From contig JBBTWP010000003.1 of NCBI GenBank assembly GCA_038062675.1, positions 129,378 through 193,377 on the forward strand: a DNA stretch of 64,000 nt, read 5' to 3'. The DNA is from Patescibacteria group bacterium. Its GTDB lineage: Bacteria > Patescibacteriota > Minisyncoccia > Phycocordibacterales > UBA1550. A program made the translations under genes and the position numbers. The notes beneath the pieces are model-generated. The model saw only the letters and a list, made by a program, of their open reading frames with translations. It was not told the DNA's origin and did no database searches. Below are positions 10,085 through 60,698 of the stretch, piece after piece (position 1 is the stretch's first letter; each line of letters begins with the position of its first letter).

Positions 10085-10169
10085 GTTTAGAAACACTCTC
10101 ATCCCCGTGTGTTGGTTTCGTATGAGCATTAGAAAGACTATAATACAAAGAACAGCCTCTTACCCCTTT

Positions 10170-11525
10170 ATGCTCGACAATACACAACTTTGGGATCACA
10201 CACTGCGCGAACTCGGGAACGAGCTGTCTCGGGCAAATTTTAGTACATGGTTTAAAAACACTGCGATCACCAAACAAGAAGATGGTATCGTCACTATTGG
10301 TGTTCCCAATGAGTTTGTAAAAGATTGGTTGCAAAACAAATTCCACAAAATGATTCTGAAATCATTGCGTGGGCTTTCTGAACATGTCCGTAATATTGAA
10401 TATGTAATTTGCAAGATTGAAGAAAAATCTGATAAAAAACAAACTGAAAAAACTCCATCAAACCCAACATCTGAGCTTCCTTTGGAAAACCTTTATATCG
10501 ACCGTGCGGATGGGCTTAACCCTCGTTATGCATTTGATAGCTTTGTGATCGGAGCGTTTAATGAACTTGCGTACGCCGCATCTCAAGCAATCTTAAAAAA
10601 AGTGGGAAAGAATGTATACAACCCTTTATTTATTTATGGCAATACCGGACTTGGAAAAACTCATCTCATTCAAGCTATCGGCAATCAAGTAAAAAAACTA
10701 CACCCTGATAAAAAAGTATTTTACACGACATCAGAAAAATTTTCAGTGGACTACATCAGTTCAGTAGGGCAGGGGTCGAAGACAATGAATACTTTTAAAG
10801 ATAAGTACCGAAAATACGATCTCTTAATTATGGATGACATCCAATTCCTTTCAAATAAAGAAAAAACTCAAGAGGAACTCTTTCATATCTTTAACGAACT
10901 TTATAATAACAACAAACAAATTGTTTTTTCTTCCGATCGTCATCCAAACTATATTCCTGCACTTGAAGAACGCCTTAAATCTCGTTTTAATGCTGGAATG
11001 ACTGTAGATGTGCAGGAGCCTGAATATGAATCACGGCTCGCTATTTTACGGGCAAAAGCCGACAGTAGTAAATTCTTCCCTCCAGATGAAATTATTGAAT
11101 ATCTTGCTTCATCAATCCAAGGAAATGTTCGTGAATTGGAAGGGCTTTTAAATGGTGTTATTTGCCAATCACAGCTTAAAAATAGGCATTTAACACTTAA
11201 TGAGATTAAACCCTTTATAAAGAACACGTCAAAACCAAAAAAACTTCTTTCTGTGAAAGAAATAGTGAAGGTGGTGTGCGGTTTTTACAATATTGAAGAA
11301 GATCATGTGTATGAAAAAACAAGAAGGAAAGAAGTAGTGAAACCACGCCAAGTTGCAATGTTTATTTTGCGCGAGGATTTCAATATCTCATATCCAACTA
11401 TTGGACAAAAATTAGGTGGTCGTGATCACACCACTGTTATGCATTCGTATGATAAAATTAAAGTAGATATGAAGAATGATTTATCGCTTATGCAGGAGGT
11501 TGATCAGATCCGCGCAATGTTTTAA
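10170..11525 (+). CDS. dnaA: Chromosomal replication initiator DnaA. The ORF is open from 10107; the likely start is MLDNTQLW at 10170.
   Basis: AAA+ Walker A GNTGLGKTHL is present. A C-terminal DnaA box-binding HTH is present. Confidence 0.9.
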   Translation: MLDNTQLWDHTLRELGNELSRANFSTWFKNTAITKQEDGIVTIGVPNEFVKDWLQNKFHKMILKSLRGLSEHVRNIEYVICKIEEKSDKKQTEKTPSNPTSELPLENLYIDRADGLNPRYAFDSFVIGAFNELAYAASQAILKKVGKNVYNPLFIYGNTGLGKTHLIQAIGNQVKKLHPDKKVFYTTSEKFSVDYISSVGQGSKTMNTFKDKYRKYDLLIMDDIQFLSNKEKTQEELFHIFNELYNNNKQIVFSSDRHPNYIPALEERLKSRFNAGMTVDVQEPEYESRLAILRAKADSSKFFPPDEIIEYLASSIQGNVRELEGLLNGVICQSQLKNRHLTLNEIKPFIKNTSKPKKLLSVKEIVKVVCGFYNIEEDHVYEKTRRKEVVKPRQVAMFILREDFNISYPTIGQKLGGRDHTTVMHSYDKIKVDMKNDLSLMQEVDQIRAMF

Positions 11526-11761: not shown

Positions 11762-12862
11762 ATGAACCTCTCTTGTAATCGTGAATTTCTTCAAAAATGT
11801 ATTTCATCTGCTGATCGAGTAACAGGAAAACATTTAAGCCTTCCTATTTTAGGAACTGTTTTTATTGCAACTGATCATAAAAAAATAATTATTCGTGCAA
11901 CAAATCTTGAAGTAGGTGTTGAGTTTCAAATTCCTGCTACTATAAAAACAGAAGGAAGTGTTGCACTTCCAGGAAGTCTTTTAGCAAATATTCTTTCAAG
12001 TATTACTGATGAACAAGAAATAAATATCAGTGTTTCTGGAAGTGTTGGGAAAATAACCACAAAAACAAAAAATCTTACGATTAAAGGTTTTTTACCTGAT
12101 GATTTCCCAACTATTCCTTTAGTTAATGAAGGTGATAAATTTACCCTTCCAGCAGTAAAATTTATACAAGGTGTTAAGTCAGTGGTAGGGAGTGCGGCTA
12201 TTTCTGATATAAAACCTGAAATCTCAAGCATTTATATTCATCAAGTAGGAGATTTTTTGATTTTTGCCGCAACAGACTCATTTCGTCTTTCTGAAAAGAA
12301 AATAAAATACCAAGGGACCGCGTTAACACATGGAATTATTATACCTGTAAAAAATATCCTTGAAGTGGTAAGAATTCTTGAACAAAACCAAGAGGATATT
12401 TCATTCACCGCGACAAAAAATCAATTTTCTTGCGCAGGAAAGTCTGTTTACATAACTTCCCGTGTTGTACAAGGGGTGTATCCTGATTACGAGCAAATCC
12501 TCCCTAAAGGGCACACCACAGAAGTGGTTATGTTGAAACAAGATCTTTTAAACACTTTAAAATTATCTACACTTTTTTCCGATAAATTCAATAAAATAAC
12601 ATTTACTATAAACCCTCAGCAAAAAAAGTGTATTATTGCGACAAAAAACACAGAAATTGGGGAAATTGAGTCAAATCTTACCGCAACTCTTTCTGGGGAA
12701 CCCATTGAACTTTCATTGAATGGAAAACACCTTTTTGATTCACTGGGGTCAATCGAAAAAGATAGTGTGATTATTCAGTTCAATGGAGCAGACAAACCGG
12801 CAGTTATTCGCGGGCTTGGTGATCCATCATTCACCAACCTCACAATGCCCCTTACACAATAA
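11762..12862 (+). CDS. dnaN: DNA polymerase III beta sliding clamp.
   Basis: N-terminal MNLSCNREFLQKCISSADRVTGKHLSLPILGTVFI. Length 366 aa. Position after dnaA. Confidence 0.9.
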   Translation: MNLSCNREFLQKCISSADRVTGKHLSLPILGTVFIATDHKKIIIRATNLEVGVEFQIPATIKTEGSVALPGSLLANILSSITDEQEINISVSGSVGKITTKTKNLTIKGFLPDDFPTIPLVNEGDKFTLPAVKFIQGVKSVVGSAAISDIKPEISSIYIHQVGDFLIFAATDSFRLSEKKIKYQGTALTHGIIIPVKNILEVVRILEQNQEDISFTATKNQFSCAGKSVYITSRVVQGVYPDYEQILPKGHTTEVVMLKQDLLNTLKLSTLFSDKFNKITFTINPQQKKCIIATKNTEIGEIESNLTATLSGEPIELSLNGKHLFDSLGSIEKDSVIIQFNGADKPAVIRGLGDPSFTNLTMPLTQ

Positions 12863-13116
12863 TGCTCCCTCTCGGTAATCTTCTCGCACGATTTAAAAAT
12901 CTCACCAACACAGAAAGGGTGCGAAAAGAGCTTATTTGTGAAGTTTTGAAAGAATTTAAGATTCCTCTTTTGAACACCCAAATATTTTTTTCAAAAAATA
13001 CCGTTTTTATAAAAGCACCACCTATTATAAAAACAGAAGTAGCACTTAAAAAAGGGGATATCCTCAAAAAAATCACCACAAATACAGGGTTGCGTCATAT
13101 TCAAGATATTTTTTAA
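12862..13116 (+). CDS. Small protein overlapping the dnaN stop (TAATG). Possibly a DUF721/DciA-like or S4-like RNA-binding protein.
   Basis: 1-nt overlap coupling with dnaN. No diagnostic motif recognised. Confidence 0.35.
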   Translation: MLPLGNLLARFKNLTNTERVRKELICEVLKEFKIPLLNTQIFFSKNTVFIKAPPIIKTEVALKKGDILKKITTNTGLRHIQDIF

Positions 13117-13132
13117 AATAGTTATACACGCG

Positions 13133-13141
13133 TTATCCACA
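13133..13141 (+). promoter_or_regulatory. Consensus DnaA box downstream of the dnaN operon.
   Basis: ttatccaca exact. A near-copy ttatacaca lies at 13122-30. Confidence 0.4.
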
Positions 13142-13297
13142 TACCACCCCTTGACAAACCTAATCTTTCAGATTACAATCTGTAATTAGATATACTATAA
13201 AGGAAATTTTCTTATATGGATTACAGAGTACCTTGTCAATTAATGATGGCATTGTGCCATCTCAACTCAATGTTTCAAGTGTTTCAGGAGGTTTACT

Positions 13298-14899
13298 ATG
13301 AAGACGCTCTCAAAGCTAATCTTTCTTTCCGTGGTTCTGGTGTTTGGTGTGACTGGCTGTAATGATGGGGGAGGAGATTCTCCGCCCCCTGTAAAACAGG
13401 AGCCGATTCCGGTTCCTGTGCCAACACCTGAACCTGCACCATTTCCATTACCGGCGCCTGAAAAACTCACTATTACCAAAACTAGTCTAGCAAACCGAGT
13501 TTCTTCCACGCTAGGCTTTCAAGAAGTAGGCAGATTTTCAATCTCAGCTCTCGGGGAAAAGAATTTTTCTTCCGAAGGGGAAATGATGCTTACTTTTGGT
13601 GGCACACTTGCAGGGAGTGTTGGGTATGTGAGGATTATGGATATTTCAAGAATAGGTTATGTGGAAGAACGTATTTCTTCTGAACACACCGGAGCTCCTG
13701 TGGAGAACAAGAAAGCCACTGTGGTTTTCTCGACCCCAATTGTTGGTTCAAAAATCATGGCAACCTGGTTGGTTGACGAAAAGTACACCTCAGACTTTTC
13801 TGTGGAAGTAGCCCTTGTGGGAGTTGATCCAATACCTCATGGTTCTTTTGCGGATTTGACTGTTACCATAGAAACAAAAGACCATATACAGTTTGGGAAC
13901 AATGTCGTTGTGGCAGAGTTTCCATTTCGTCTTGCTGTTGCTCGTATTGAAACAGGTAAGTTGTTTTTTGCAAAAGATTCTGAGATTGTACGAGAGGATG
14001 TGGAAACGGGAGTTAATACTGTTTTAACATTCTCGCCGCAGGTTGCGGAACGCAACATGGTGCCTTCGCGTGACGGTAATAAGCTTGCTTTCATTGCGGA
14101 TCTTTTGGGCGTAAATGTTGTTAATGTGGGAATAATGGACAGTAATGGCGATGGGTGTTTTGTAGTAGATGCAGCTGGATGTAATCAGGCGTATCAGATT
14201 GTGCAGGCTCATATCTGTTATGCCACAGAACGTATCGCTTTGTTTCCAAACATCAATATGGTTGCTTGTCCCGGGACGAATTTTAGGGATAATAGTCTTA
14301 AACGCGCGAGAAACATATTTCTCACGCAAATCTCCCCAAATCTTGGAGCGCAACTTACCAATGATGTGTATGAGGACTTTGAGTCTGTTGTTTCTGCTGA
14401 TGGCAAGATGACCTACTTTCTTTCCTGTCGCCCGTTTGATAAGCCGGAAGCTCCTTTTGTTGAATACGTAGGAGGTTGTGGTATTTTTAAACGGGAAATT
14501 ATTGATTTGGATAAATTAGTTTTTGGTCCAATTCAATATGTGGTGGGAAGGGGGGATTGGAAGTTTGGCAGTGGAGGTGATTCACTTTCCGGTATTTCTC
14601 TGTCTCCTGATGACAAACAGTTAGTATTTTCTCGCGACATCGGAACAAGGAACTTTTTTGGGTCGATGGCAACGGTAAGTATTGTAAACACTGACGGAAC
14701 GGTACTTAAGGAGATTGGTGAAGGATTTCATCCGTACTGGGTCACTGATGGAAGGATTCTCTACAAAAAGAAATCTTCTCTTTTTGGCAGAGAAATTATC
14801 CTCAGTGATTCCGACGGAAGTAATCCGCGTGTTGTTTTGAAGTTGAAAGATGGAATTTCTGGTCAGGAATCGGCAACAAGTGTAACGTTTATCCCTTAA
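13298..14899 (+). CDS. Lipoprotein with a Pro-rich linker and a beta-propeller-like C-terminal domain.
   Basis: Signal peptide with lipobox VTGC. PEPAPFPLPAPE linker. RBS GGAGG upstream. Confidence 0.55.
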   Translation: MKTLSKLIFLSVVLVFGVTGCNDGGGDSPPPVKQEPIPVPVPTPEPAPFPLPAPEKLTITKTSLANRVSSTLGFQEVGRFSISALGEKNFSSEGEMMLTFGGTLAGSVGYVRIMDISRIGYVEERISSEHTGAPVENKKATVVFSTPIVGSKIMATWLVDEKYTSDFSVEVALVGVDPIPHGSFADLTVTIETKDHIQFGNNVVVAEFPFRLAVARIETGKLFFAKDSEIVREDVETGVNTVLTFSPQVAERNMVPSRDGNKLAFIADLLGVNVVNVGIMDSNGDGCFVVDAAGCNQAYQIVQAHICYATERIALFPNINMVACPGTNFRDNSLKRARNIFLTQISPNLGAQLTNDVYEDFESVVSADGKMTYFLSCRPFDKPEAPFVEYVGGCGIFKREIIDLDKLVFGPIQYVVGRGDWKFGSGGDSLSGISLSPDDKQLVFSRDIGTRNFFGSMATVSIVNTDGTVLKEIGEGFHPYWVTDGRILYKKKSSLFGREIILSDSDGSNPRVVLKLKDGISGQESATSVTFIP

Positions 14900-14920
14900 T
14901 TTTGTACATTTGGTTTATTT

Positions 14921-14957
14921 AAAGGGTCTTGCTTCACAGCGAGACCCTTTTTTTTTG
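14921..14957 (+). terminator. Intrinsic terminator.
   Basis: agggtcttgc-ttcaca-gcgagaccct hairpin followed by T9. Confidence 0.65.
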
Positions 14958-14970
14958 CCCACATTCCCAC

Positions 14971-14979
14971 TTATCCACA
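14971..14979 (+). promoter_or_regulatory. Isolated consensus DnaA box upstream of the Gly-rich protein gene.
   Basis: ttatccaca exact. Confidence 0.35.
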
Positions 14980-15054
14980 CCTCCACATAGTATTCACTTC
15001 CCCACACTGATATACTAAGGAAGTATTATCAAACCAACCATCATTTATTATATT

Positions 15055-16185
15055 ATGAAAAATATTGCTCAAAATCTTAAACTCATCGCCCTTGCTGTCA
15101 TCCTCTCGTTTGGTATTAGTTTTGCTTCAGCATGGGTTCTCCCTACTGCTGCACCACCCAATGGAAATGCGGATGCGCCGATTACGACGGGAGGAGGGCA
15201 GACAATTAAAGGGAATTTAACAATCGGTACTCCTCTAAACCCAGGAACTCTTACTATTGCTCCCGCGTCAAACCTCAAAATTCCCGGTGCAACAGTCGGA
15301 GAATTTCTTAAGGTCACCGGAGCTGATGGATCTGTGGGGACGGGGGTAGCTGGGGGCGGAGCCGCTGACAACCTTGGGAATCATACAGCAACGCAAAATT
15401 TAACCATGGGAGGGAATCAGATTACGGGTTCGAGCGGTATTACAGCGTCAGTTTTTAGCGACAAGGAAGACACAACATATTTTGCTAACCCAGCTTCTTC
15501 GTCGCGATTTAATGATGTTGTCGTGGTTGGTGCTGTTAATGCTGGGTCTGTTGTTGCCAACGGAGGAGCACTACTCCCCCACGGTAAACAACGTTTTGTT
15601 GGACCAGGAACATACACATTTGCGGTACCTGCGGGTGTGAACAAGGTATGGGTGACCATGGCGGGTGGTGGAGGAGGGGGGACATCAAGCCTTACTACAA
15701 ATGGAGGTCGTGGTGGTGGAGGAGGAGCCGCTGTTGTAGCGCAAGAAGTCACAGGGCTTACGCCTGGTAGTAATATTACTGTGACCGTTGGTTCTGGTGG
15801 CGTCGGTGGTTTGGGGGGCGTAAGTGGCTTTGCAATTTTCAATGTGGGAACCTCAGGGGGGGTATCGTCGTTTGGTGGTTATGTTATTACCCCTGGTGGA
15901 GGGGGGGGTGCTGGTAGTTTCATTCTTCATGCTCCACCTGGTGGTCCTGGGGGTGGGTTTGGTGGTAATGACCTTAGTGAAGGTCACCGTATGGGTGGTG
16001 TTGGAGGGGGTAGTATGTTTGGTACAGGCGGAATACGCACCGCTCTTGGTAGTTCTGCTATAATTCACCCTGCTGGCATTGCCACTGGCTTCGGTGCGGG
16101 TGGCGCCGGAGGTCCAGGTGCTACCGGTTCGACTTATTACGCCGGTGGAGCTGGTTCCCCCGGCTTTGTCTTGGTTGAGTGGTAA
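15055..16185 (+). CDS. Secreted glycine-rich repeat protein.
   Basis: Signal peptide. Long GGxGG/GxGxG low-complexity runs. Confidence 0.5.
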   Translation: MKNIAQNLKLIALAVILSFGISFASAWVLPTAAPPNGNADAPITTGGGQTIKGNLTIGTPLNPGTLTIAPASNLKIPGATVGEFLKVTGADGSVGTGVAGGGAADNLGNHTATQNLTMGGNQITGSSGITASVFSDKEDTTYFANPASSSRFNDVVVVGAVNAGSVVANGGALLPHGKQRFVGPGTYTFAVPAGVNKVWVTMAGGGGGGTSSLTTNGGRGGGGGAAVVAQEVTGLTPGSNITVTVGSGGVGGLGGVSGFAIFNVGTSGGVSSFGGYVITPGGGGGAGSFILHAPPGGPGGGFGGNDLSEGHRMGGVGGGSMFGTGGIRTALGSSAIIHPAGIATGFGAGGAGGPGATGSTYYAGGAGSPGFVLVEW

Positions 16186-16355
16186 GAATTTTTCTTTGGC
16201 CCCCGATTGGCCCCCGAGGTGAGACCTCGGTAAAAAGACCTCGGTAAAATAAATTTGTGGTGTAATTTAAACAAAATTCTTAAAAATCCCCAAGATTAGA
16301 AGTCTTGGGGATTTTTACTTAAAGGGGAAAGGAGGTCAGGTACCCTTTATTTTTG

Positions 16356-16450
16356 GGTGTAATTTAAAAATCTCTTGAGGTGAAATCTCGAGAGATTTTT
16401 GTTGTACGCCTTTTGAAGGGAAAGGGATCTTTTGGAAATGAAAGCGGGGG
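16356..16450 (+). repeat. 95-bp direct repeat, copy A. It contains the hairpin aaaatctcttgagg-tgaaat-ctcgagagatttt.
   Basis: About 96% identical to 17861..17955. A partial third copy of its 5' end (ttgtggtgtaatttaaa) lies at 16253-16269. Confidence 0.8.
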
Positions 16451-16544
16451 AGGTGAGGCAGCTTTTAGATTTGCTGCCAATTTATAGCCATGGTTTATAT
16501 AGCTATTTTCCACAAAAGAAAGATTTGCTATTTTTTTAGCAATT

Positions 16545-17690
16545 TTGTACAATAAGAAGATGCTCATATTTAAAAGGCTTATAGAACAAAACATTAAAAA
16601 CTCGCTTTTCAAAGGCAAGGCAATCCTAATCTTTGGACCACGGCAAGCAGGGAAAACAACGCTCGCTAAAAAGCTTCTTGGTGAATATGGTGCAGAGGAC
16701 GCTTATTTTAATTGTGAATTGACAGAAGTTCGTGCCGCTCTTCGAGTTGGCGCTCCAGAGAAACTAAAAAATCTCATTGGTGAGAAAAAAATTATTGTTC
16801 TTGATGAAGCTCAGACGGTGGAAAACATAGGTTCGATTCTCAAAACATTCATAGATACCTATCCGGAAGTTCAGATTATTGCGACGGGTTCGTCATCTTT
16901 TGACTTGGCGAATAAAATCAATGAGCCGCTTACCGGCAGATCTTTTGAATTCACGTTATACCCATTGTCTCTGGCTGAGCTAAAAAATAATTCTCTCAAT
17001 GTTAATCAGGAACAGTTGTATGAATATTTGTCAGTAGGGCTTTATCCAGGAATCATTGCTGAAAAAGATAAAAAGTTAAAAGAAAGCATTCTCAAAAATA
17101 TTACCACCAACTACCTCTATAAAGATATCTTCACTTTCGAGAGTATTAAAAGTCCTCAAGTATTTGAAGATCTCATTGCCATGCTCGCTTTTCAGATGGG
17201 TCAGCTTATTTCTGTAAACGAGCTTGCAAAATCGCTTGGAGTCAGTCGTTTTACCGTAGAAAAATATATAAAATTGCTTGAGCAAGCGTATGTTATAAAA
17301 AAAGTCAGAGCATTTTCTAAAAATAAACGAAATGAAATTAAAAAGAGTTTCAAACTCTACTTTATAGATATGGGTATACGAAATGCGGTTGTGCAAAACA
17401 TCTCACACGATATGACCACAAGGGCAGACAGGGGGTTTTTGCTCGAAAATCTATTTTTTATGGAATTACTAAAAAATAATATAAATGAATCTTTTCCCCC
17501 GCAAGTATATTTTTGGCGAAACACCAAAGGATACGAAGTTGACTTTGTTCTGGAGGACAAGGGAATAATACATGCGTATGAATGCAAATGGAACGAGCAA
17601 GAGCAAGTGGTTTTCTCTGTATTTAAAAAATCGTACCCGAATGCGGAGATTGATGTCGTTACGCCGAATAAATTAATTTCAAAAAACTAA
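16545..17690 (+). CDS. AAA+ ATPase of the COG1373 / DUF4143 family.
   Basis: Walker A GPRQAGKTTLAKKL. Overall family layout. Low-GC codon usage relative to neighbours. Confidence 0.75.
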   Translation: MYNKKMLIFKRLIEQNIKNSLFKGKAILIFGPRQAGKTTLAKKLLGEYGAEDAYFNCELTEVRAALRVGAPEKLKNLIGEKKIIVLDEAQTVENIGSILKTFIDTYPEVQIIATGSSSFDLANKINEPLTGRSFEFTLYPLSLAELKNNSLNVNQEQLYEYLSVGLYPGIIAEKDKKLKESILKNITTNYLYKDIFTFESIKSPQVFEDLIAMLAFQMGQLISVNELAKSLGVSRFTVEKYIKLLEQAYVIKKVRAFSKNKRNEIKKSFKLYFIDMGIRNAVVQNISHDMTTRADRGFLLENLFFMELLKNNINESFPPQVYFWRNTKGYEVDFVLEDKGIIHAYECKWNEQEQVVFSVFKKSYPNAEIDVVTPNKLISKN

Positions 17691-17860
17691 CCACAGCTTT
17701 CACAGCTCTCCGTGGCGACACCATGATAAAAGTTGAGTCGTTACTTTTTGATAGCATTCATATACACGATGTGTATGCAAAAACAAACAAAACAATCGGG
17801 CAGATTAGAAATGAATTAGGAAAAGGCTTCTCGAGGTCACACCTCGGAAAAAGAAGCTTG

Positions 17861-17955
17861 TGGTGTAATTTAAAAATCTCTTGAGGTGAAATCTCAAGAG
17901 ATTTTTGTTGTACGCCTTTTAAAGGGAAAGGGATCTTTTGGAAAAGAAAGCGGGG
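17861..17955 (+). repeat. 95-bp direct repeat, copy B.
   Basis: See copy A. Together the two copies bracket the AAA+ gene. Confidence 0.8.
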
Positions 17956-17968
17956 ATGGTGAAATAAG

Positions 17969-20515
17969 TTACTGAATTTTTAGCTTTGTACTCACTGTTG
18001 ATTTGTTGAACACGGAGTCGTAAGCAATAATCGTAATTTCATTTTCAGGATTGGAGACGTCAATGTTTTCAGGGATAAAGGAGATGGTGAAGGGGGGTTG
18101 GGTACTTTTGTCCACAAATACTCCGTTTACATAAAGCTCTACGCGGCTTAATGGATAGGGGCCTGTGCTTCCTACGGTTATGCTGATGCGGTCGGCTTTG
18201 GTGTGAGGCACAGCAAGGTCTGAGCCAGAGAGTGAAATGATAGGGGAGGATTCGGGGGTATGAACGTTGTCGTACTCTGTGGGAATGCCACTACGGTCGC
18301 CCTCAGGGAATGATTGTTTTGCAAACCATGCACGGACAGGTTCTTCCCATAAAACAAACTGAGCGTCATTTTGGGGGTTTGTGGGAGGTGCTCCTCGAGG
18401 ATCGTCTTTCTTGATCCATTTCAAAATAGTGTGTACTTCGGGAACAACGCGAATAACTTTTGTTTGTACTGGAGTGTTTGGTGTTGCCAGCTTGCCTGAT
18501 ATGGTGTCAACAACATATTTTTCTCCACCCTGCCAAATACCTTGAAGGGAAGCAGGAAGTGCGGTTAAATCCTCATTTTCTAGTGGGATGAATTTTTCGG
18601 GTGAAGTTTTCCTTAAAATATCATCCATAACTGCGCGCCAGACGAGGGTGACGGTGAAGCCAGCGGAATTGCCTTTTTTTATGGGCGTGGCGTCGTTATT
18701 ACCTGCCCACATACCGAGGACAATTTTGGGGGTGTAGCCAATAGTCCACACATCTTTGTAATTGTTGGTGGTACCCGTTTTTACGGCAACGTCTTTGCCG
18801 CCGAAGTAGAGAGCGGAATTTGCACCAAAGGTTGGTGTACGTGCTTTGTTGTCGGAAAGAATACTCGTGATTTGACGTGCCACTTCTGTGGGGAGTACTT
18901 CTTCTCTTGATTCTTGAAATTCCTCAATAATTTTACCCGCCTTGTCTTCAATGCGCAGGATTGCGGTGGTTTTATTTTTGACGCCGTCGTTTGCAAAAAC
19001 GCCGTAAGCGCCCGTCATATCAAGAAGAGAAACTTCGCCACCACCCAAGACGAGCGAAAGCCCAAAACGAGATTCGTCATTCAGGCTGGTAATACCCATG
19101 CGACGAGCAGTGGCGATAGTGTCTTTGAGTCCGGCGAGATAGAGTGTTTTAACCGAGGTGATATTGCGGGATTGCGCAAGAGAACTGCGCATGGAAATAG
19201 GTCCACGGTAACCCCCTTCATAATTTTCCGGAGTGTAACAATCTTCTTTTTTGGTGGCAGGAGTGAGAGGAACGCCGTGCCAATCACAGTCGGTGCTAAA
19301 GTTTGTTGGCACATCAAATAAAACTGTCTCAGGTGTGTAGCCTTTTTTGAACGCCGTTGCATAGGCAAATGGTTTAAACGTAGACCCCGGTTGGCGATAA
19401 GCGAGGGCAACATTAAAGTTTCCATCGTTTGTTGTTTCAAAATAGTCGCGGGAGCCGATCATTGCCAATACTTGCCCGTTTTTTGGGTCCATTGCTACGA
19501 GCGCCATATTTTTTGCTCCAAATTTTGTTTCCATGTTTGCTGCATGGTCGGACACAATTTCCTCTGCTTTTTTTTGAAGTTCGTAATCAAGCGTGGTGAT
19601 GACGCGGTACCCGTTTTCGTCAAGCGCCTGTTCACCATATTTTTCTGCCAGATATTCTTTAATCCACACTACAAAATGAGGTGCTTTTATGCCGCGCGGT
19701 TCTCGGGGAAGAAATTCAACTTTTTCTTTTTGGGCGGAAACGTAGGTGACTTCGTCAATAAAGCCAAGTTCACGCATTCGTTTAAGCACAAAATCTTTGC
19801 GAGCATCAAGATTTTTTCGATTGTTGCCGTAGGGGGAATAAAATGTGGGGGCCTTGGGAAGTGCGGCAATATATGCAGCTTGCGCAAGGGTGACATCGCG
19901 CGGTTCTTTGCCAAAAAAGACGCGACTTGCCTCCGCAACGCCATAAATGTTACCCCCATAGGGGATTTCATTGAGGTAGAGCTCGAGAATTTCTTCTTTG
20001 GTGAATGCCTGTTCGAGCTTGAACGAAAGAAGCAACTCTTTGAATTTACGAGTGAGGTTTTTGTCGGAAGTAAGCAGGGTATTTTTCACCACCTGCTGGG
20101 TGATAGTTGAGCCTCCTTGACTAAAGCCACCCTCGGAAATGTTTGCAATAATAGCGCGAAGAATGGATTTTGGCTCAACGCCATAATGGTGGTAGAAGTT
20201 TGCATCTTCGACGGCAATCGTAGCATTTTTGAGTTCGGGTGCAATAGCCTCAAAAGGGACCATGGTGCGCTTGATACCCTCATGTACATCATAAAGGAGT
20301 ATTTTCCCGGTGCGGTCGTAGATTTTTGTTGATTCTACGATTTTTCGGTCATTAAAATTTTCAAAATCAGGAAGCTGAACAAAAGAGACCATTAAAAGGA
20401 AAACACCCCCCATAGCAAAGAATGCGCTCCCTGAAAGAAAAAGCAACGATTTAAAGTGCTTACGAAACAAAAACCGTTTCGTTTTGCTGCGTTTTTTGGG
20501 GGTGGCGTGCACCAT
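17969..20515 (-). CDS. Class A penicillin-binding protein (transglycosylase plus transpeptidase) with a C-terminal extra beta domain.
   Basis: The GT51 motifs are present. The transpeptidase motifs SGSTFKP and KTGT are present. Confidence 0.9.
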   Translation of the reverse strand: MVHATPKKRSKTKRFLFRKHFKSLLFLSGSAFFAMGGVFLLMVSFVQLPDFENFNDRKIVESTKIYDRTGKILLYDVHEGIKRTMVPFEAIAPELKNATIAVEDANFYHHYGVEPKSILRAIIANISEGGFSQGGSTITQQVVKNTLLTSDKNLTRKFKELLLSFKLEQAFTKEEILELYLNEIPYGGNIYGVAEASRVFFGKEPRDVTLAQAAYIAALPKAPTFYSPYGNNRKNLDARKDFVLKRMRELGFIDEVTYVSAQKEKVEFLPREPRGIKAPHFVVWIKEYLAEKYGEQALDENGYRVITTLDYELQKKAEEIVSDHAANMETKFGAKNMALVAMDPKNGQVLAMIGSRDYFETTNDGNFNVALAYRQPGSTFKPFAYATAFKKGYTPETVLFDVPTNFSTDCDWHGVPLTPATKKEDCYTPENYEGGYRGPISMRSSLAQSRNITSVKTLYLAGLKDTIATARRMGITSLNDESRFGLSLVLGGGEVSLLDMTGAYGVFANDGVKNKTTAILRIEDKAGKIIEEFQESREEVLPTEVARQITSILSDNKARTPTFGANSALYFGGKDVAVKTGTTNNYKDVWTIGYTPKIVLGMWAGNNDATPIKKGNSAGFTVTLVWRAVMDDILRKTSPEKFIPLENEDLTALPASLQGIWQGGEKYVVDTISGKLATPNTPVQTKVIRVVPEVHTILKWIKKDDPRGAPPTNPQNDAQFVLWEEPVRAWFAKQSFPEGDRSGIPTEYDNVHTPESSPIISLSGSDLAVPHTKADRISITVGSTGPYPLSRVELYVNGVFVDKSTQPPFTISFIPENIDVSNPENEITIIAYDSVFNKSTVSTKLKIQ

Positions 20516-24318: not shown

Positions 24319-24993
24319 ATGAGTATTAAGTACGCACCATTTATAAAAAGTCTTCGCACAAAAAAAGGGCTTTCACAGCTTGCGTTGGCGCAAAAGATAG
24401 GCATATCTCGCCCATTGTACATTGCAGTCGAGCAAGGGAAGCGAGAGCTTACACTGGGCGAATTTGATAAACTTTCGGGCGTGCTTGGAGTGTCGCTTGA
24501 GGAGCTTGAAGGTGGCGAGGTGCCCGATTACGAAAAGTACAAGCAAATGATTTTCATGTTTCTTCGTTTGAATAAAGAAATTACGAAAACAAAGCTGGCT
24601 AAACTCCTCTATTTTGCGGATTTTGGTTGGTTTTACTCTCATCTCAAAAGTATGAGTGGAATGCAGTATCGGAGAATTACTTATGGTCCTGTTGCGGATA
24701 CATATTTTCGACTTATCGACGAGATGTCCGAGGCGGGGGAGATATCTATCAAGCAAACAGAGGAGGGGGCTATGCTCATTTCCCAAACTCGAAGCGGATC
24801 AAAAGCGAACCTCTTGGGTGTAAGCATTGAAGAAAAGAAGCTTATAGAAAAGATTGATAAAAAATGGAAAGGCAAAAAAACAGCAGACATTGTAAAATTT
24901 ACCCACAATCAGTTTCCCTATCTTTACGCCCAAGATAATGAAATTGTGTCATACGGACTTTTTACTCAAGAAAATCCAGATGAAATCTACTAA
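24319..24993 (+). CDS. HTH-XRE domain fused to a Panacea (DUF4065, SocA/PanA-type) antitoxin domain.
   Basis: N-terminal KKGLSQLALAQKIGISRPLYIAVEQGKRELTL. C-terminal KLAKLLYFADFGWFYSHLKSMSGMQYRRITYGPVADTYF, as in Panacea-domain antitoxins. An imperfect palindrome tacata-tat-tatgta overlaps the -10 upstream. Confidence 0.7.
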   Translation: MSIKYAPFIKSLRTKKGLSQLALAQKIGISRPLYIAVEQGKRELTLGEFDKLSGVLGVSLEELEGGEVPDYEKYKQMIFMFLRLNKEITKTKLAKLLYFADFGWFYSHLKSMSGMQYRRITYGPVADTYFRLIDEMSEAGEISIKQTEEGAMLISQTRSGSKANLLGVSIEEKKLIEKIDKKWKGKKTADIVKFTHNQFPYLYAQDNEIVSYGLFTQENPDEIY

Positions 24994-25375
24994 CTACGAA
25001 GTAATATTCGAATCTTTTACAGAGAGGCACTTCATAAAATCCTTTGCTAAAAAATATAGAGGATCTTGGGACTTTACTTTTAAATATTTGTATCAAGAAT
25101 TCGAGCAGATAGAGCTATTGTTTTTGAAAAATACTGCTGAGACTATTTCAGATTCTGAAGATGTAAAAATTTGCAAAACTGAGTTTAAGATTGCGGGAAC
25201 ACAAGACTCAAGACATGGTTCAGGAAATAGATGTATTGTTGCAATTCATAAAAATATAAATAAAGTTCGTGTTTTACTCGTCTATCACAAAAACGATCTT
25301 GGCGGTGGCAATGAAACAGCAAACTGGAAAAGGGTCATAAAAGAAAATTACCCAGAGTACTTAAGCCTTTTATAA
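24980..25375 (+). CDS. RelE/ParE-superfamily-like toxin. 14-nt overlap with the antitoxin gene.
   Basis: C-terminal CIVAIHKNINKVRVLLVYHKND resembles the RelE beta-strand core. Coupled to the Panacea gene. Confidence 0.5.
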   Translation: MKSTNYEVIFESFTERHFIKSFAKKYRGSWDFTFKYLYQEFEQIELLFLKNTAETISDSEDVKICKTEFKIAGTQDSRHGSGNRCIVAIHKNINKVRVLLVYHKNDLGGGNETANWKRVIKENYPEYLSLL

Positions 25376-25384
25376 CAAACTCTT

Positions 25385-25440
25385 CTGCCGGTCCTCTAGA
25401 TAGTCAAATCCCAAGTGCTCATAGGCGCGCTTAAAGAGGC
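25385..25440 (-). repeat. Second duplicate of the ruvB 3' end (atagtcaaatcccaagtgctcataggcgcg).
   Basis: About 90% identical over roughly 35 nt to 26284-26318. Confidence 0.6.
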
Positions 25441-25479
25441 CGCACAATATGATTTTTTTTCGCATGGTATAATACGCAT

Positions 25480-26262
25480 ATGAATATCCAAATAAACAAA
25501 AAATTTTTTATTTTCGTTGTAATTTTAACCATCTTTTCTTTAATCGGGTTAACAATAGATAATTGGGTTTCGCAAAGCACCCCAGAACTCTTCATTGCCG
25601 GGGTGTCTGTCGCAGTTCTCTTTTTTCCAGCAATCCTCGCCATCCTAGTGTCATTTTTGTTGGGAACACTAGTAAAGGTAATCATAGTACTCAAAGATTT
25701 TATTACGAAGAAAGAACCAATTCAGCTTAAAAATATTTTCCCCCGCACCGTTTCTTTACCACTAGTTGTGCTCTTTGCGTTATTTTTTTACTGGTCACTA
25801 CTTTGTAATTCACTAAACACAGCTCGAGAAAAACCTCTTGCAAGCGCCATAATATCAATTCTGACAAGCGAGCGAGGAATGGCAGAGCTTTACTACGAGC
25901 AAAATAATGGTTCGTATGGGGGACAAAAGCCAGCTTCGCATGAAACATGTTCTGCTGAGAGCACAATGTTTGTAGATAAGAATAGCGGACTCAGGAACAT
26001 AGAAAGCAACCGTGCTTATATAAAAGATTCGATGGTTTGTGCCGTTGGGGGCAAGGGGCAGACATGGGCAGTTAGTGTTAAATTTAGAACAGACCTCGTA
26101 CAAAACAGCTGCATTCCTTTTTCTAAAGGAATAAAAGATTTTTTTATTACGCCAAAGGAATCTTTGTGGTGTGTAGACAGTAGTGGGAAAGCCGGTCCAT
26201 CCTTAGATGTTGAGACTCACAACGATGGTTCTGTGGGTTGTGCTACCCCGCCAGTGCTATAA
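25480..26262 (+). CDS. Membrane protein (about 4 TM) with a C-terminal type IV pilin-like domain. Paralogue of the C-terminal part of 6956..8266. Leaderless-type promoter TGGTATAAT-N6-ATG.
   Basis: [14 protein letters not shown]...C...C pilin-head pattern. Extended -10 at 25465-25473. Confidence 0.5.
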
Positions 26263-27276
26263 AAGTCTCCCTTGCTTATCCTCCGGATAGTCAAATCCCA
26301 AGTGCTCGTAGGCGCGGGGTGTGGCGACGCGGCCGCGTGGGGTGCGCTCGAGGAGGCCGAGCTGGAGGAGGTAGGGTTCGTTCACTTCTTCGATAGCAGC
26401 AGTTTCTTCGGAAAGTGCTGCTGCAATTGTGGTGAGGCCGACTGGGCCGCCGTTGAATTTATCAATAATCACTTCAAGTATTTTTCGGTCGAGGGCGGTG
26501 AGGCCAAGCTCGTCGATTTCAAGCAGGGCAAGGGCGTCCGCGACAAATTTTGCAGAGATGTCACCGCGTTCTACTTGGGCGAAATCACGCGCACGTTTTA
26601 AAAGATAGTTTGCGGTACGGGGCGTTGCACGACTGCGACGTGCGATTTCTTGCGCAGCCTCGGCGGGCAAGGGGATTCCCAAAATCTCTGCCGAGCGCGT
26701 TACAATTTTTTCAATTTCAGGTTGTGTATAAAATTCGAGACGGAATGTGCCGCCAGAGAAACGCGAGCGAAGTGGAGCAGAGAGCATGGCGACACGCGTC
26801 GTTGCGGCGATGAGGGTAAAGGGTGGAAGATCGAGCTGAATGGTGCGCGCCGACGGACCTTTGCCAATAATGATGTCGAGCACGCCGGACTCCATAGCAG
26901 GGTAGAGCACTTCCTCAATCATCTTATTTAAGCGGTGAATTTCGTCGATAAAGAGCACGTCGCCAGGAGCAAGGTTGGTGAGAACCGATGCCAAATCACC
27001 CACCTTTTCAATAGCAGGACCCGAGGTGCTCTTCACTTGACAGCCCATTTCATTTGCGATAAGATGCGCTAACGTTGTTTTACCAAGGCCAGGGGGTCCG
27101 TAAAACAGCACATGTTCGGGAGGGTGGGCGCGTTCCTTGGCAGCCTGAAGCAGTATTTTAAGGTTTTTCTTTATCGTTTCTTGACCAATATAGTCATCAA
27201 AACGCTTCGGCCGCAATGTTTGGTCGAGGAAAGAAAACTCTTGATTTAACTGCTTATTTTGTTGTTCGGGGTCCAT
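26257..27276 (-). CDS. ruvB: Holliday junction branch-migration helicase RuvB.
   Basis: [22 protein letters not shown] Walker A. Full-length AAA+ RuvB. Confidence 0.9.
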
Positions 27277-47588: not shown

Positions 47589-47732
47589 CTCTTTGAAGTT
47601 TAACTTTTGGATGTGTGTCATAGCAATATGGCCCACATCCGCATTTTCAAGTTTTTGACCTATTTTTTGGTCGAGGGTTTGAAAATGCGCGTAATATCGT
47701 GTATTGTGCGCACAAGAGTAAAACGTAATTAT

Positions 47733-50700: not shown

Positions 50701-50795
50701 CACTCTTTGAGTGGATGATTCTCGTAATCCTTATGCTCCTCCTTGTGCTTCTCGGCAACCATCTTTACGGACGATTTTCAGGACCAAAACACTAA
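47733..50795 (+). CDS. Large surface protein: signal peptide, DUF11-like N-terminal domain, six tandem Fn3-like repeats (WFEWG…ISGLTQNTTYYYRAVA…QGTVYG), second DUF11-like domain, C-terminal TM anchor.
   Basis: Repeats are readable in the translation. The track ORF starts at 47607, but a signal peptide follows the M at 47733/47744. Confidence 0.6.
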   Translation: MNTIMKKIQTILLAFALLVVPTASFAAALNNDAQDFKTLRAVNITKNPGCVACRSTAITANPGDVLAFSIYYHNTGPDTANNVRVWLTPQISPSGTTHSFVAKVSADNASAVNGTTVVTLSGNQTIDFLQGSVIWWPNQSVTTSTAFPSGQTGAEIFTSEGLNLGSIASGWGTQGAVNMRFQVANTGTGGGTQLSVPVVATHVATNVLTGSATLNGYVDPKGTTDTVRWFEWGAATSLNNTTYQVSQGGSASDFSASISGLTQNSVYSYRAVARNAQGTVYGSVMTLTTTRVSEPVYAPLVSTRSASGVLYETATLNGFVDPKGSADTVRWFEWGSSSSLNNSTARVNHGSSASNFSANISGLTQNTTYYYRAVAQNAQGTVNGTTMSFTTEYFNIPDYPSEILVSTRSASNVSHTSATLNGYVDPSDSTDTVRWFEWGSSSSMNNTTYQVNQGSSASNFSANISGLTQNTTYYYRAVARNAQGTVYGSVLSFTTSYSGGGGYSIPLVYTRTATNITYDFAILNGHVDPKGTTDTMRWFEWGSSSYMNNTTSRTYQSNNASDFSASISGLAQNTTYYYRAVAQNSQGTVYGDMMSFSTNYTGGGNQTTFVPVVSTRNAEVSGDFAVLNGYVDPNGSNDTTRWFEWGGSQSLGSQTSRLAQGNVASNFSATLSSLVPNTTYYYRAMARNSQGTVYGSVLSFTTNSYGGGYTGAQIAPTVSTTLATEIAANSARLNSLVFSTGNYPSNAWFEWGTNTALGNKTQTVNVGSLPSVRHTDVITGLVPSVTYYYRAVAENPYGKSYGSIYSFVVNQTINTPPQTPTTVVITQPARPTPVRPQVVVVSPGAGTESLVELLLDGGADTISSNEERTYRISWKNTSKQTLKRVVLRAIIPAQMNFKSASTGSFSSEGNIVTVDAGTLTPGAIGEATFVATTERGLESGTLLVTTVNLVYTDAKGGQGDAVAYVTHRVEARDGGQGASPFGAGSFLPTTLFEWMILVILMLLLVLLGNHLYGRFSGPKH
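48300..50160 (+). repeat. About 310-bp period intragenic tandem DNA repeats (6 copies) encoding the Fn3-like domains.
   Basis: Near-identical 30-40-nt stretches recur, e.g. caaaacactacctactactaccgtgcagttgcgc at 48829 and again at 49138. Confidence 0.7.
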
Positions 50796-60668: not shown

Positions 60669-60698
60669 GCAAAAAACACCCGTTGAGGGGTGTTTTTT
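60669..60698. terminator. Copy 2 of the identical 30-nt hairpin. Terminator of the tRNA-Arg transcript.
   Basis: Identical core to 58853-58882, in the same orientation. Confidence 0.65.

What the first reader, a model, noticed from the sequence alone, without database searches (positions are those of the whole stretch)
16253..17955. AAA+/DUF4143 ATPase gene bracketed by 95-bp direct repeats
Near-identical 95-bp repeats (16356-16450 and 17861-17955) flank a single low-GC gene. Each repeat contains a terminator-like hairpin. A partial third copy of the repeat start (ttgtggtgtaatttaaa) lies 100 bp further left, next to another hairpin. This looks like a cassette-type insertion or duplication scar, or like paired copies of a small structured RNA.
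Basis: seen in the sequence. Interest (0 to 1): 0.5.

Follow-up and report, generated by a model that had tools for sequence, protein, structure and literature searches.

The report
Defence-gene cassette with duplicated insertion site
A single candidate anti-phage gene, carrying its own promoter, sits in a groundwater CPR bacterium between two copies of the DNA it apparently landed in, and about a quarter of its relatives in other genomes show the same kind of scar, which matches a little-known insertion mode described for restriction-modification genes.

Summary
The repeats are real: 16356-16456 and 17862-17962 are 96/101 identical. The right copy runs on to 17828. The left copy is the same roughly 135-nt segment, split by an extra 84 nt.

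They bracket one intact gene for an AAA_14/DUF4143 ATPase-nuclease. This is PADLOC candidate defence family PDC-S01. The host is a Patescibacteria (Yonathbacteria-like) chromosome near dnaA/dnaN.

The repeated unit is almost the whole intergenic region between two convergent genes, including their bidirectional terminator. It is not a known RNA, tRNA, attC or transposon end.

In 43 homologous loci from other metagenomes, 11 have locus-specific direct repeats of at least 30 nt around the ATPase gene. Only 1 of 148 neighbouring genes does (p = 2.5e-7). Those repeats are fragments of adjacent genes, so they are target duplications.

The cassette itself carries a conserved palindromic promoter.

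Best reading: "insertion with long target duplication", described by Kobayashi's group for restriction-modification genes, here seen for a new gene family and phylum.

No empty site could be found for this locus, and the whole genome could not be scanned. A new member of a known kind; moderately interesting.

The parts
16211..16271 (.). Left copy, part 1, of the duplicated intergenic segment.
   Evidence: It aligns with 17828-17874 of the right copy ([D3, D5], 23, 64, 80).
16272..16355 (.). An 84-nt segment present only in the left copy. It is bounded by the 13-nt direct repeat GGTGTAATTTAAA (16259-16271 and 16356-16368). It carries a strong bidirectional terminator-like hairpin (16281-16317, 15-bp stem). 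It is either a later small insertion with its own short duplication, or a piece lost from the right copy.
   Evidence: (I4). It is found nowhere else in the window or in the fetched loci.
16356..16456 (.). Left copy, part 2: the 101-nt direct repeat, with hairpin 16366-16400 (AAAAATCTCTTGAG-GTGAAAT-CTCGAGAGATTTTT; one G.T wobble).
   Evidence: (D1, I8).
16457..16559 (+). The 5' part of the insert. It holds a DnaA-box-like TTTTCCACA (16506-16514) and the family-conserved promoter with an embedded palindrome, GATTTGCTATTTTTTTAGCAATTTTGTACAAT (16522-16553; -35 TTGCTA, 17-nt spacer, -10 TACAAT). The ATG follows 6 nt later with no Shine-Dalgarno sequence.
   Evidence: The promoter scan hit is at 16525-16553. 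The same motif sits at the same distance from the ATG in 56 of 70 homologous loci. There are 20-23-nt matches at 95-100% identity to other loci, although the flanks are unrelated. For the DnaA-box position.
16560..17690 (+). An intact 376-aa AAA+ ATPase / winged-helix / PD-(D/E)xK-like protein. It belongs to Pfam AAA_14 + DUF4143 and to PADLOC candidate defence family PDC-S01. It has Walker A GPRQAGKTT, Walker B VLDEAQ, and EVDF...YECKW near the C-terminus.
   Evidence: Pfam. PADLOC PDC-S01 at E 1.7e-127. The invariant columns of the family alignment are all present. The AlphaFold model has pLDDT 89, and its best solved-fold matches are AAA+ proteins including RuvB and Cdc6/Orc1.
17691..17827 (+). 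The 3' part of the insert: 137 nt of unknown origin between the stop codon and the right repeat copy. It overlaps a 53-aa ORF (17723-17884) with no family match.
   Evidence: no similarity to other loci.
17828..17962 (.). Right, contiguous copy of the duplicated intergenic segment. It holds hairpin CGAGGTCACACCTCG (17832-17846), the 101-nt repeat 17862-17962, and the perfect bidirectional terminator hairpin 17872-17906. It ends 6 nt before the stop codon of the convergent PBP1A gene (17969-20515, minus strand).
   Evidence: (D1, D3, I6). For PBP1A.

Best explanation
The two repeats are a long target duplication left when a one-gene cassette was inserted into the roughly 170-nt gap between two convergent chromosomal genes. 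Those genes encode a glycine-rich protein (15055-16185, plus strand) and PBP1A (17969-20515, minus strand).

The insert (16457-17827, 1371 nt) is self-contained. It has a promoter with an embedded palindrome, which is probably the operator for the protein's own winged-helix domain. It has an ORF with no ribosome-binding leader, and 137 nt of trailing DNA.

About 135 nt of the target, including the shared bidirectional terminator, now lies on both sides. Both old genes therefore keep a terminator, and the new gene is insulated and terminated.

There are no fixed element ends, no integrase and no transposase. The process is therefore most likely illegitimate recombination of incoming DNA that joins the chromosome at two offset points. 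[quoted passage not shown]

What is shown: the anatomy, the recurrence in the family, and that the repeats in other loci are local target DNA. What is inferred: that insertion created the duplication at this particular locus, the recombination mechanism, autoregulation, and the defence role of the gene.
For: 1. The repeat is nearly the whole local intergenic region, not just a terminator module. It starts 25 nt after one stop codon and ends 6 nt before the other.

2. The insert holds one gene and no mobility gene, and there is no tRNA nearby.

3. The arrangement recurs. Among ATPase homologs (51-64% identical) in other metagenome contigs, 15 of 53 have direct repeats of at least 30 nt. Windows shifted by 1.9 kb give 3 of 67, and cross-locus pairs give 0 of 53. 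At gene level the count is 11 of 43 ATPase genes against 1 of 148 other ORFs, Fisher p = 2.5e-7.

4. Those repeats are 18-126 nt, 86-100% identical, and different in every locus. They include starts (L094, L105) or 3' ends (L083, L049, L078) of adjacent genes. In L094, L105, L083 and L049 the intact copy continues into the full gene (L078 was not resolved).

5. Boundaries vary. The left repeat ends 5 nt to more than 60 nt upstream of the promoter. The right repeat starts 3-6 nt after the stop codon, or overlaps the last codons.

6. The promoter-operator travels with the gene across unrelated contexts.

7. In relatives with 68-70% identical PBP1A, the dnaN-PBP1A interval lacks this gene.

8. 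In L049/L123, the 116-nt repeat is the 3' end of an NYN gene. The syntenic relative L127 has a single copy and no ATPase.

9. A second, unrelated single gene in this window (25480-26262) has the same architecture, with a duplicated ruvB 3' end.

10. Furuta, Abe and Kobayashi 2010 (PMC2853133) describe the same signature. It consists of long variable repeats, no mobile genes, and repeats that span the start or stop codons of target genes. It occurs mostly in naturally competent species.
Against: No empty site was found for this locus. The closest PBP1A in the databases is 78% identical, and its contig ends 76 nt after the gene. More distant relatives have unrelated intergenic DNA.

The rest of the source genome could not be scanned, so a dispersed repeat family is not excluded. 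This genome does hold at least one pair of identical 28-nt terminators elsewhere.

The left copy is interrupted by 84 nt, which needs a second event.

Low GC does not distinguish the gene from dnaA and dnaN.

The L049 versus L127 comparison is not a clean empty site. The filler genes differ, and the right junction there is complex, with a partial terminator copy fused through an AGTGG microhomology.

About three quarters of homologous loci show no repeat of 30 nt or more.

The neighbouring genes used as controls are mostly core genes, not other accessory genes.
Confidence: 0.62

Rival explanations
1. The ATPase-nuclease moves its own gene. In this reading PDC-S01 is an autonomous one-gene mobile element. 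The winged-helix domain binds the palindrome at the left end. The AAA+ oligomer and PD-(D/E)xK nuclease make widely and variably spaced staggered cuts in the target. Repair of those cuts gives the long duplication.
For: Flanking repeats are about 50-fold enriched at these genes relative to their neighbours. A tandem PDC-S01 paralog in L084 also has a 22-nt flanking repeat. The protein combines DNA-binding, ATPase and nuclease-like parts. A conserved palindrome sits at the left edge of the minimal cassette, and the right edge is often within 3-6 nt of the stop codon. Kobayashi's group suggested that double-strand breakage by the encoded nuclease underlies the equivalent restriction-modification insertions.
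Against: No near-identical copies exist within or between genomes. The nearest homolog of the window gene is 64% identical, so there is no sign of recent transposition. Element ends are not fixed, and there are no terminal repeats. A gene with no recognisable nuclease (25480-26262) shows the same scar in the same window. No activity has been shown for any PDC-S01 protein.
Confidence: 0.12
2. The repeat is one member of a dispersed intergenic repeat or terminator family in this genome. In this reading the gene merely lies between two members by chance. This is Furuta's third class, 'chance insertion between repeated sequences'.
For: This genome re-uses terminator sequences. An identical 28-nt hairpin occurs at 58853 and 60671, and related units occur at 55774-56151. 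The 84-nt extra unit resembles the main unit in layout: GGTGTAATTTAAA, an A-run/T-run hairpin, then a purine-rich tail.
Against: The 64-kb window holds only these copies. The similarity extends about 60 nt beyond the hairpin on one side and, across the split, 47 nt on the other. It covers a second hairpin too. In other loci the equivalent repeats are unique coding fragments.
Confidence: 0.1
3. The repeat is a local segmental duplication made after the gene was already in place. It might have arisen, for example, by slippage or unequal exchange that copied the terminator region. Such a copy could have been kept because it insulates the gene. In this reading it has nothing to do with insertion.
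For: The duplicated segment supplies a functional-looking terminator to each side. The region shows other small duplications: a 14-nt tandem repeat and the 13-nt repeat around the 84-nt unit.
Against: The idea needs a non-tandem duplication that lands exactly on the far side of one gene. It does not explain why the same geometry recurs around this gene family with repeats that are non-functional gene fragments.
Confidence: 0.07
4. The repeats are attL/attR sites from site-specific recombination. The recombinase would act in trans. This covers an integron-like cassette with attC sites, or a satellite of an integrase-bearing element.
For: Direct repeats of this length that contain an imperfect palindrome and flank a single gene resemble attC-bounded cassettes. 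A XerC-like integrase lies 1.3 kb from the ATPase in the L049/L123 locus.
Against: The window region has no integrase and no tRNA. Repeats from different loci share no core, with 0 of 53 cross-locus matches. Their lengths vary from 18 to 135 nt. They are pieces of neighbouring genes. The cassette has its own promoter, unlike integron cassettes. The hairpin stem is 14 bp and has no R'/R'' GTTRRRY-type cores.
Confidence: 0.04
5. The two repeats are paired genes for a small structured RNA, or cis-regulatory leaders.
For: Both strands fold well below shuffled controls, with z of -4.1 to -4.8. There is a sub-threshold Rfam His_leader match of 31 bits over the two adjacent hairpins.
Against: No Rfam family reaches its gathering score. 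The low folding energy comes from A-run/stem/T-run terminators placed at the ends of convergent genes. The left copy lies upstream of the ATPase promoter, so it is not in that mRNA. The equivalent repeats elsewhere are coding fragments.
Confidence: 0.03

Closest known systems
Insertion with long target duplication of restriction-modification gene complexes (Nobusato et al. 2000, cited as ref. 37 in Furuta, Abe & Kobayashi 2010, Nucleic Acids Res 38:2428, PMC2853133)
   Same: A small insert carries nuclease-type defence genes and no integrase or transposase. It is flanked by direct repeats far longer than transposon duplications. The repeats vary in length and differ at every site. They often span the start or stop codon of a target gene, so the target stays intact. 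Cases occur mostly in naturally competent bacteria. All of these anatomical points are seen here and in the homologous loci.
   Different: The cargo is not a restriction-modification system. It is a single AAA_14/DUF4143 (PDC-S01) gene with its own conserved palindromic promoter. The host is a Patescibacteria/CPR genome. The left copy here also carries an extra 84-nt unit.
PDC-S01 candidate defence genes (PADLOC-DB; discussed in PMC12988326)
   Same: The window protein matches the PDC-S01 model end to end at E 1.7e-127. It has the described ATPase plus PD-(D/E)xK architecture.
   Different: The literature held here treats PDC-S01 only as an abundant, unvalidated single-gene candidate. No paper in the library links it (as DUF4143, COG1373 or PDC-S01) with flanking repeats or a conserved promoter-operator.
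Integron gene cassettes with attC sites
   Same: A single ORF is bracketed by similar repeats of about 100 nt that contain an imperfect palindrome.
   Different: There is no integron integrase. The repeats of different loci share no attC core. The repeats are local target DNA. The gene has its own promoter, whereas integron cassettes are usually promoterless.
Genomic islands integrated by tyrosine recombinases at tRNA genes (attL/attR direct repeats)
   Same: Direct repeats of tens of bases flank horizontally acquired DNA.
   Different: There is no integrase in the insert and no tRNA at the site. The insert is only 1.4 kb, and the repeats are not conserved between sites.

Membership tests
Insertion with long target duplication (criteria of Furuta et al. 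2010) | Direct repeats longer than 30 bp flank the insert | tested here: met
   101 nt at 95% identity. This extends to about 135 nt across the split in the left copy.
Insertion with long target duplication (criteria of Furuta et al. 2010) | Insert shorter than 20 kb and free of integrase, transposase or phage genes | tested here: met
   The insert is 1371 nt and holds one ORF with AAA_14/DUF4143 domains only. There is no tRNA.
Insertion with long target duplication (criteria of Furuta et al. 2010) | Repeat sequence is low-copy in the genome (not a dispersed repeat) | tested here: inconclusive
   There are no other copies in the 64-kb window, in 129 other loci or in IMG/VR. The remaining part of the source genome could not be searched. 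The GTDB scan with a gapped pattern gave only chance hits in unrelated phyla.
Insertion with long target duplication (criteria of Furuta et al. 2010) | An empty site in a related genome carries one copy of the repeat and aligns with both flanks | not testable with these tools
   The closest PBP1A relative is 78% identical, and its contig ends 76 nt after the gene. Relatives at 68-70% lack the gene, but their intergenic DNA is unalignable. The exact glycine-rich neighbour protein is not on record elsewhere. Indirect support comes from L049/L123 against L127, where the syntenic relative has a single copy of the NYN 3' end.
Insertion with long target duplication (criteria of Furuta et al. 2010) | Insert contains restriction and modification gene homologs | tested here: not met
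   The cargo is a PDC-S01 ATPase-nuclease, with no methyltransferase. The process matches. The cargo class does not.
PDC-S01 / AAA_14-DUF4143 proteins | Full-length match to the family models, with intact Walker A/B and PD-(D/E)xK-type motifs | tested here: met
   PADLOC PDLC04789 at E 1.7e-127 over residues 4-372. Pfam AAA_14 and DUF4143 score above their cut-offs. The family-invariant residues are present.
PDC-S01 / AAA_14-DUF4143 proteins | Protects against phage | not testable with these tools
   The 2026 survey describes experimental validation as pending for most of these candidate systems and reports none for PDC-S01 (PMC12988326).
Integron cassette (attC) | Conserved attC structure and cores shared between cassettes, integron integrase nearby, promoterless ORF | tested here: not met
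   There were 0 of 53 cross-locus repeat matches. The region has no integrase. The gene's own conserved promoter lies inside the insert.
Insertion sequence / transposon | Transposase gene, terminal inverted repeats, short duplication of fixed length | tested here: not met
   There is no transposase domain. No inverted repeats occur at the insert ends. The duplications span 18-135 nt and vary in length.
Rho-independent (intrinsic) terminator | A stable, largely G+C-paired stem-loop followed by a T-run on the transcribed strand, at the 3' end of a gene | tested here: met
   Each of the two 101-nt repeat copies has a 14-bp stem with an A-run before and a T-run after. It therefore reads as a terminator on both strands, and it lies downstream of convergent genes. 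The simple scan listed only the 16281-16317 hairpin, because the other two stems have fewer than 3 G-C... they have 5 G-C-type pairs but were not reported. Function was not tested.
Known small RNA or cis-regulatory RNA family (Rfam 15) | Match at or above a family's gathering score | tested here: not met
   The window gives only two tRNAs. The best local match is His_leader at 31.1 bits, against a cut-off of 49.

The most novel reading that the evidence does not exclude
PDC-S01 genes are not (or not only) defence genes. They would be the smallest kind of autonomous mobile element: one protein (AAA+ ATPase, winged helix, PD-(D/E)xK nuclease) that recognises the palindrome in its own promoter and inserts its own gene through widely spaced staggered breaks. 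This would explain both the long variable target duplications and why the family is among the most abundant 'candidate defence' genes in prokaryotes.
Probability: 0.1. Interest if true: 0.85.

Novelty: new member of a known kind. Interest (0 to 1): 0.5.

Why it matters
PDC-S01 is reported as the fourth most common defence candidate across prokaryotes, yet nothing is known about how it spreads or works (PMC12988326).

Three findings bear on that. The gene travels as a minimal unit carrying its own promoter. In at least a quarter of sampled CPR loci it sits between long, locus-specific target duplications. And the scar matches the insertion mode proposed 25 years ago for restriction-modification systems.

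Together these extend that poorly understood route of gene gain to a new gene family. They also extend it to the streamlined genomes of the Candidate Phyla Radiation. Mobile-element genes were not found in or next to the inserts examined here, and such bacteria are thought to depend on DNA uptake.

The repeats also give a practical marker for recent gene gain in metagenome-assembled genomes. They offer a built-in route for precise loss of the gene by recombination between the repeats.

The conserved palindrome and the DnaA-box-like site give concrete handles for testing how the gene is regulated.

Tried and rejected
1. GTDB genome scan. I used a gapped pattern (GGTGTAATTT...AAAAATC...GATTTTT) in the hope of finding the source genome and other copies.

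2. Empty site for the window locus. PBP1A homologs and their contigs were too distant, or the contig was too short. An exact look-up of the glycine-rich neighbour found nothing on record. Exact look-ups of the ATPase and PBP1A returned only the same arrangement. The short Logan contigs break at the 34-nt exact repeat run, as expected from the repeat alone.

3. Empty site for a homologous locus (L049). All contigs with the identical NYN neighbour carry the ATPase. The best relative (L127) lacks it and has one copy of the repeated segment. However, the interval holds other genes, so it is only a partial answer.

4. Diversity-generating retroelement idea. Four of the five mismatches have A in the right copy. 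I rejected this because there is no reverse transcriptase, the repeats are non-coding, and mismatches in other loci show no adenine bias.

5. Low GC as evidence of foreign origin. I rejected this as weak, because dnaA and dnaN are as low.

6. Phage carriage. IMG/VR holds only two homologs, both distant at 42% identity.

7. Solved structures and fold search. These gave generic AAA+/winged-helix relatives only (RuvB, Cdc6/Orc1, RFC, Apaf-1-type, MuB), which does not bear on mobility.

8. Terminal copies of the DnaA-box-like motif as element ends. The motif is enriched upstream only: 16 of 67 loci, against 4 of 69 downstream.
Full report
**Observation.** The window region was read directly and searched for repeats.
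- One two-copy direct repeat stands out: 16356-16456 and 17862-17962, 101 nt, 96 of 101 identical. The mismatches are at 16390, 16415, 16439, 16450 and 16451.
- Each copy contains an A-run, a 14-bp stem, a 7-nt loop and a T-run, at 16366-16400 and 17872-17906.
- Pairwise alignment changes the picture slightly. The right copy is contiguous from 17828 to 17962. It begins with a small hairpin, CGAGGTCACACCTCG.
- The left copy is the same segment in two pieces, 16211-16271 and 16356-16456. They are separated by 84 nt that are bounded by GGTGTAATTTAAA on both sides.
- There are therefore two copies of a segment of about 135 nt, one of them interrupted. There are not three copies.
- The structure, with the same mismatches, is present in independent assemblies of Hainich groundwater metagenomes.

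**Context.**
- The window carries dnaA (10107-11525) and dnaN (11762-12862). It also carries a PBP1A gene (17969-20515, minus strand) and a class I tRNA synthetase gene of the Trp/Tyr family.
- PBP1A homologs place the organism in Patescibacteria, close to Candidatus Yonathbacteria.
- The gene between the repeats (16560-17690) is an intact AAA_14 + DUF4143 protein. It matches PADLOC's candidate defence family PDC-S01 end to end, at E 1.7e-127.
- It has Walker A and B motifs and an EVDF...ECKW motif of the PD-(D/E)xK type. DUF4143 is listed in that nuclease superfamily by Steczkiewicz et al. 2012 (PMC3424549).
- The predicted structure is confident (pLDDT 89). It resembles AAA+/winged-helix proteins in general. 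No close solved relative exists.
- PDC-S01 is described as the fourth most common defence candidate in prokaryotes; the paper reports no experimental validation for it (PMC12988326).

**What the repeated segment is.**
- It starts 25 nt after the stop codon of the glycine-rich protein gene (15055-16185). It ends 6 nt before the stop codon of the convergent PBP1A gene.
- In other words, it is almost the entire intergenic region that these two genes would share if the ATPase gene were absent. It includes a hairpin that reads as an intrinsic terminator on both strands.
- A-run/stem/T-run hairpins of this type occur at other gene ends in the window.
- No Rfam family reaches its threshold. The best match is a sub-threshold His_leader hit caused by two adjacent hairpins.
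- There is no tRNA, no integrase and no transposase.

**Comparative evidence.** I aligned 26 homologs of the ATPase with the window protein. I then fetched 80 loci that encode relatives (51-64% identical) from metagenome contigs. Comparing the flanks of each gene gave the following.
- 15 of 53 loci with enough flank have a direct repeat of at least 30 nt around the ATPase gene. Windows shifted by 1.9 kb give 3 of 67. Upstream and downstream flanks taken from different loci give 0 of 53.
- At gene level, 11 of 43 ATPase genes are flanked by such repeats, against 1 of 148 other ORFs. The odds ratio is about 50 and Fisher p = 2.5e-7.
- One of the four other ORFs with a shorter repeat is itself a tandem PDC-S01 paralog.
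- The repeats are 18-126 nt long and 86-100% identical. They are unrelated from locus to locus.
- They are local DNA. In L094 and L105 they contain the start of an adjacent gene. In L083 and L049 they contain the 3' end of one, and in L078 part of a histidine-kinase 3' region whose two copies diverge after the repeat. In the first four, the intact copy continues into the full gene.
- Most repeat pairs are not identical, so they cannot come from an assembler walking round a loop.
- Spacing between copies is 1187-1892 nt, so every insert holds a single gene.

**Anatomy of the cassette.**
- Upstream of the ATG, nearly all loci share one motif at a fixed distance. It is ACAAATTGC-N10-GCAATTTGT followed by TTATATT, and then the ATG about 8-10 nt later with no purine-rich ribosome-binding site. 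The TTGC...GCAA core is found in 56 of 70 loci.
- In the window this motif is at 16522-16553, and it coincides with the promoter-scan hit.
- It reads as a sigma-70-type promoter whose spacer carries a palindrome. The natural inference is autoregulation by the protein's own winged-helix domain, with a leaderless or nearly leaderless mRNA. Neither point was tested.
- The motif is conserved at 95-100% over 20-23 nt between loci whose other flanks are unrelated. It therefore belongs to the travelling unit.
- The edges of the unit are not fixed. The left repeat ends from 5 nt to more than 60 nt upstream of the motif. The right repeat begins 3-6 nt after the stop codon in six contigs (five distinct loci, since L080 and L082 are the same locus), and it overlaps the last codons in five.
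- Variable edges, no terminal repeats and no recombinase argue for illegitimate recombination rather than a dedicated transposition or integration machine.

**Known counterpart.** Furuta, Abe and Kobayashi (2010, PMC2853133), extending Nobusato et al. (2000), describe 'insertion with long target duplication' of restriction-modification genes.
- The inserts have no other mobile element.
- The flanking repeats are longer than 30 bp and of variable length.
- The repeats often span the start or stop codon of the target gene, so that it stays intact.
- Cases occur mostly in naturally competent species.
- The authors suggest that double-strand breakage by the encoded nuclease may be involved. They also suggest that the repeats allow amplification and release.

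The window locus and the homologous loci share this whole signature. The cargo differs, being a PDC-S01 gene rather than a restriction-modification system, and the phylum is new. The library holds no paper linking DUF4143, COG1373 or PDC-S01 with flanking repeats.

**Is the gene the cause, or only the cargo?**
- The strong enrichment at PDC-S01 genes would fit self-mobilisation.
- Three things speak against that as the main reading. The nearest homolog of the window gene is only 64% identical. No multi-copy bursts are seen. A second, unrelated single gene in the same window has the same scar.
- That second gene is ORF 25480-26262 (260 aa, no family match). It lies between a 59-nt, 80% identical duplication of the 3' end of ruvB. 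It has a TGGTATAAT promoter 6 nt before its ATG, and its stop codon overlaps the right repeat.
- I therefore favour a general host-level process. Incoming DNA would join at two offset points, possibly bridging sister chromosomes. PDC-S01 cassettes would simply be frequent passengers. Self-mobilisation stays as the more novel minority reading.

**Limits.**
- No empty site could be obtained for this locus.
- The best indirect case is L049/L123. The context there is rpsO-NYN-[ATPase]-223 aa-pnp, and the 116-nt repeat is the NYN 3' end. The syntenic relative L127 has a single copy and no ATPase. However, the interval there holds other small genes. The right junction of L049 is also complex: a partial terminator copy is fused to the repeat through an AGTGG microhomology.
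- The remainder of the source genome could not be scanned. My one GTDB scan returned only chance hits.
- The repeat is absent from the rest of the window, from 129 other fetched loci and from IMG/VR.
- Low GC of the gene is real, but dnaA and dnaN share it.
- The origin of the 84-nt extra unit in the left copy remains open. It may be a later small insertion with a 13-nt duplication, or a loss from the right copy.

**Verdict.** The cassette-insertion reading is supported by recurrence and by the nature of the repeats elsewhere. The small-RNA reading is not supported. This is a new member of a known but obscure kind of event. The family-wide pattern and the conserved promoter-operator make it moderately interesting.

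Noticed in passing
window 25371-26316: There is a second single-gene insertion with the same architecture. ORF 25480-26262 (260 aa, no Pfam, NCBIfam or PADLOC match) lies between 59-nt direct repeats, 25371-25429 and 26258-26316, that are 80% identical. The right copy is the true 3' end of ruvB (26257-27276, minus strand). The left copy is a decayed pseudo-copy of the RuvB C-terminus. TGGTATAAT lies 6 nt before the ATG, and the stop codon overlaps the right repeat.
   Followed up: partly
window 58853-58880 and 60671-60698: Two identical 28-nt bidirectional terminator hairpins (AAAAAACACCCGTTGAGGGGTGTTTTTT) bracket a single ABC-transporter gene (58906-60648, minus strand), next to a tRNA gene (60706-60777). 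This may be another target duplication, or a re-used terminator.
   Followed up: partly
window 16522-16553; loci L043-L122 at about -43 to -14 from the ATG: PDC-S01 genes of CPR bacteria share a promoter with an embedded palindrome, ACAAATTGC-N10-GCAATTTGT plus TTATATT, at a fixed distance from an ATG that has no ribosome-binding site. The TTGC...GCAA core is present in 56 of 70 loci. This is probably an autoregulatory operator with a leaderless mRNA.
   Followed up: partly
window 16506-16514; 13 loci at -57 to -51 from the ATG: A DnaA-box-like TTATCCACA (up to 1 mismatch, either orientation) sits just upstream of the -35 region of many PDC-S01 promoters. It is found in 16 of 67 loci, against about 4 expected from the background rate. 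In the window it reads TTTTCCACA. It is not enriched downstream of the gene.
   Followed up: partly
window 12863-17968: The interval between dnaN and PBP1A is variable. Relatives with 68% identical PBP1A (L041, L042) have only an 84-aa ORF there. The window has a 533-aa PD40-repeat protein, a 376-aa glycine-rich (Gly_rich_2) protein and the ATPase.
   Followed up: partly
window 24319-25375: A gene for an HTH_3 plus SocA/Panacea antitoxin-domain protein (24319-24993) overlaps a 145-aa ORF with no family match (24938-25375). This is a likely toxin-antitoxin pair. It lies immediately left of the second insertion and is absent from the relatives' RuvC-RuvB interval.
   Followed up: no
window 16222-16249: There is an exact 14-nt tandem duplication, AGACCTCGGTAAAA x2, in the left copy of the duplicated segment. 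The right copy has one unit.
   Followed up: no
window 48323-50127: There are six tandem coding repeats of 306-321 nt (67-83% identical) inside the 1062-aa ORF 47607-50795.
   Followed up: no
window 55774-56151: Two units spaced about 290 nt apart each carry a terminator-like hairpin and a shared GTTTTCTTAACGTGTGGTCAC motif. They lie just upstream of the tRNA gene at 56328-56400.
   Followed up: no
L049 2868-2915 and 4308-4340 (also L123): There are nested repeats. A terminator (AAAATAAAAAGCGGGGGAGAGTGGTTCTCCGCCCGCTT) lies upstream of the ATPase. Its first half recurs downstream, fused to the outer 116-nt repeat through an AGTGG microhomology. A 94% identical terminator follows the NYN gene in the relative L127. 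This suggests serial or multi-step rearrangements.
   Followed up: partly
L084 4549-5673: A second PDC-S01 paralog (39% identical to the window protein) lies in tandem with the first and is itself flanked by a 22-nt direct repeat. Contig Ga0208375_1002683 (L074/L077) also carries two copies, 4.6 kb apart.
   Followed up: partly
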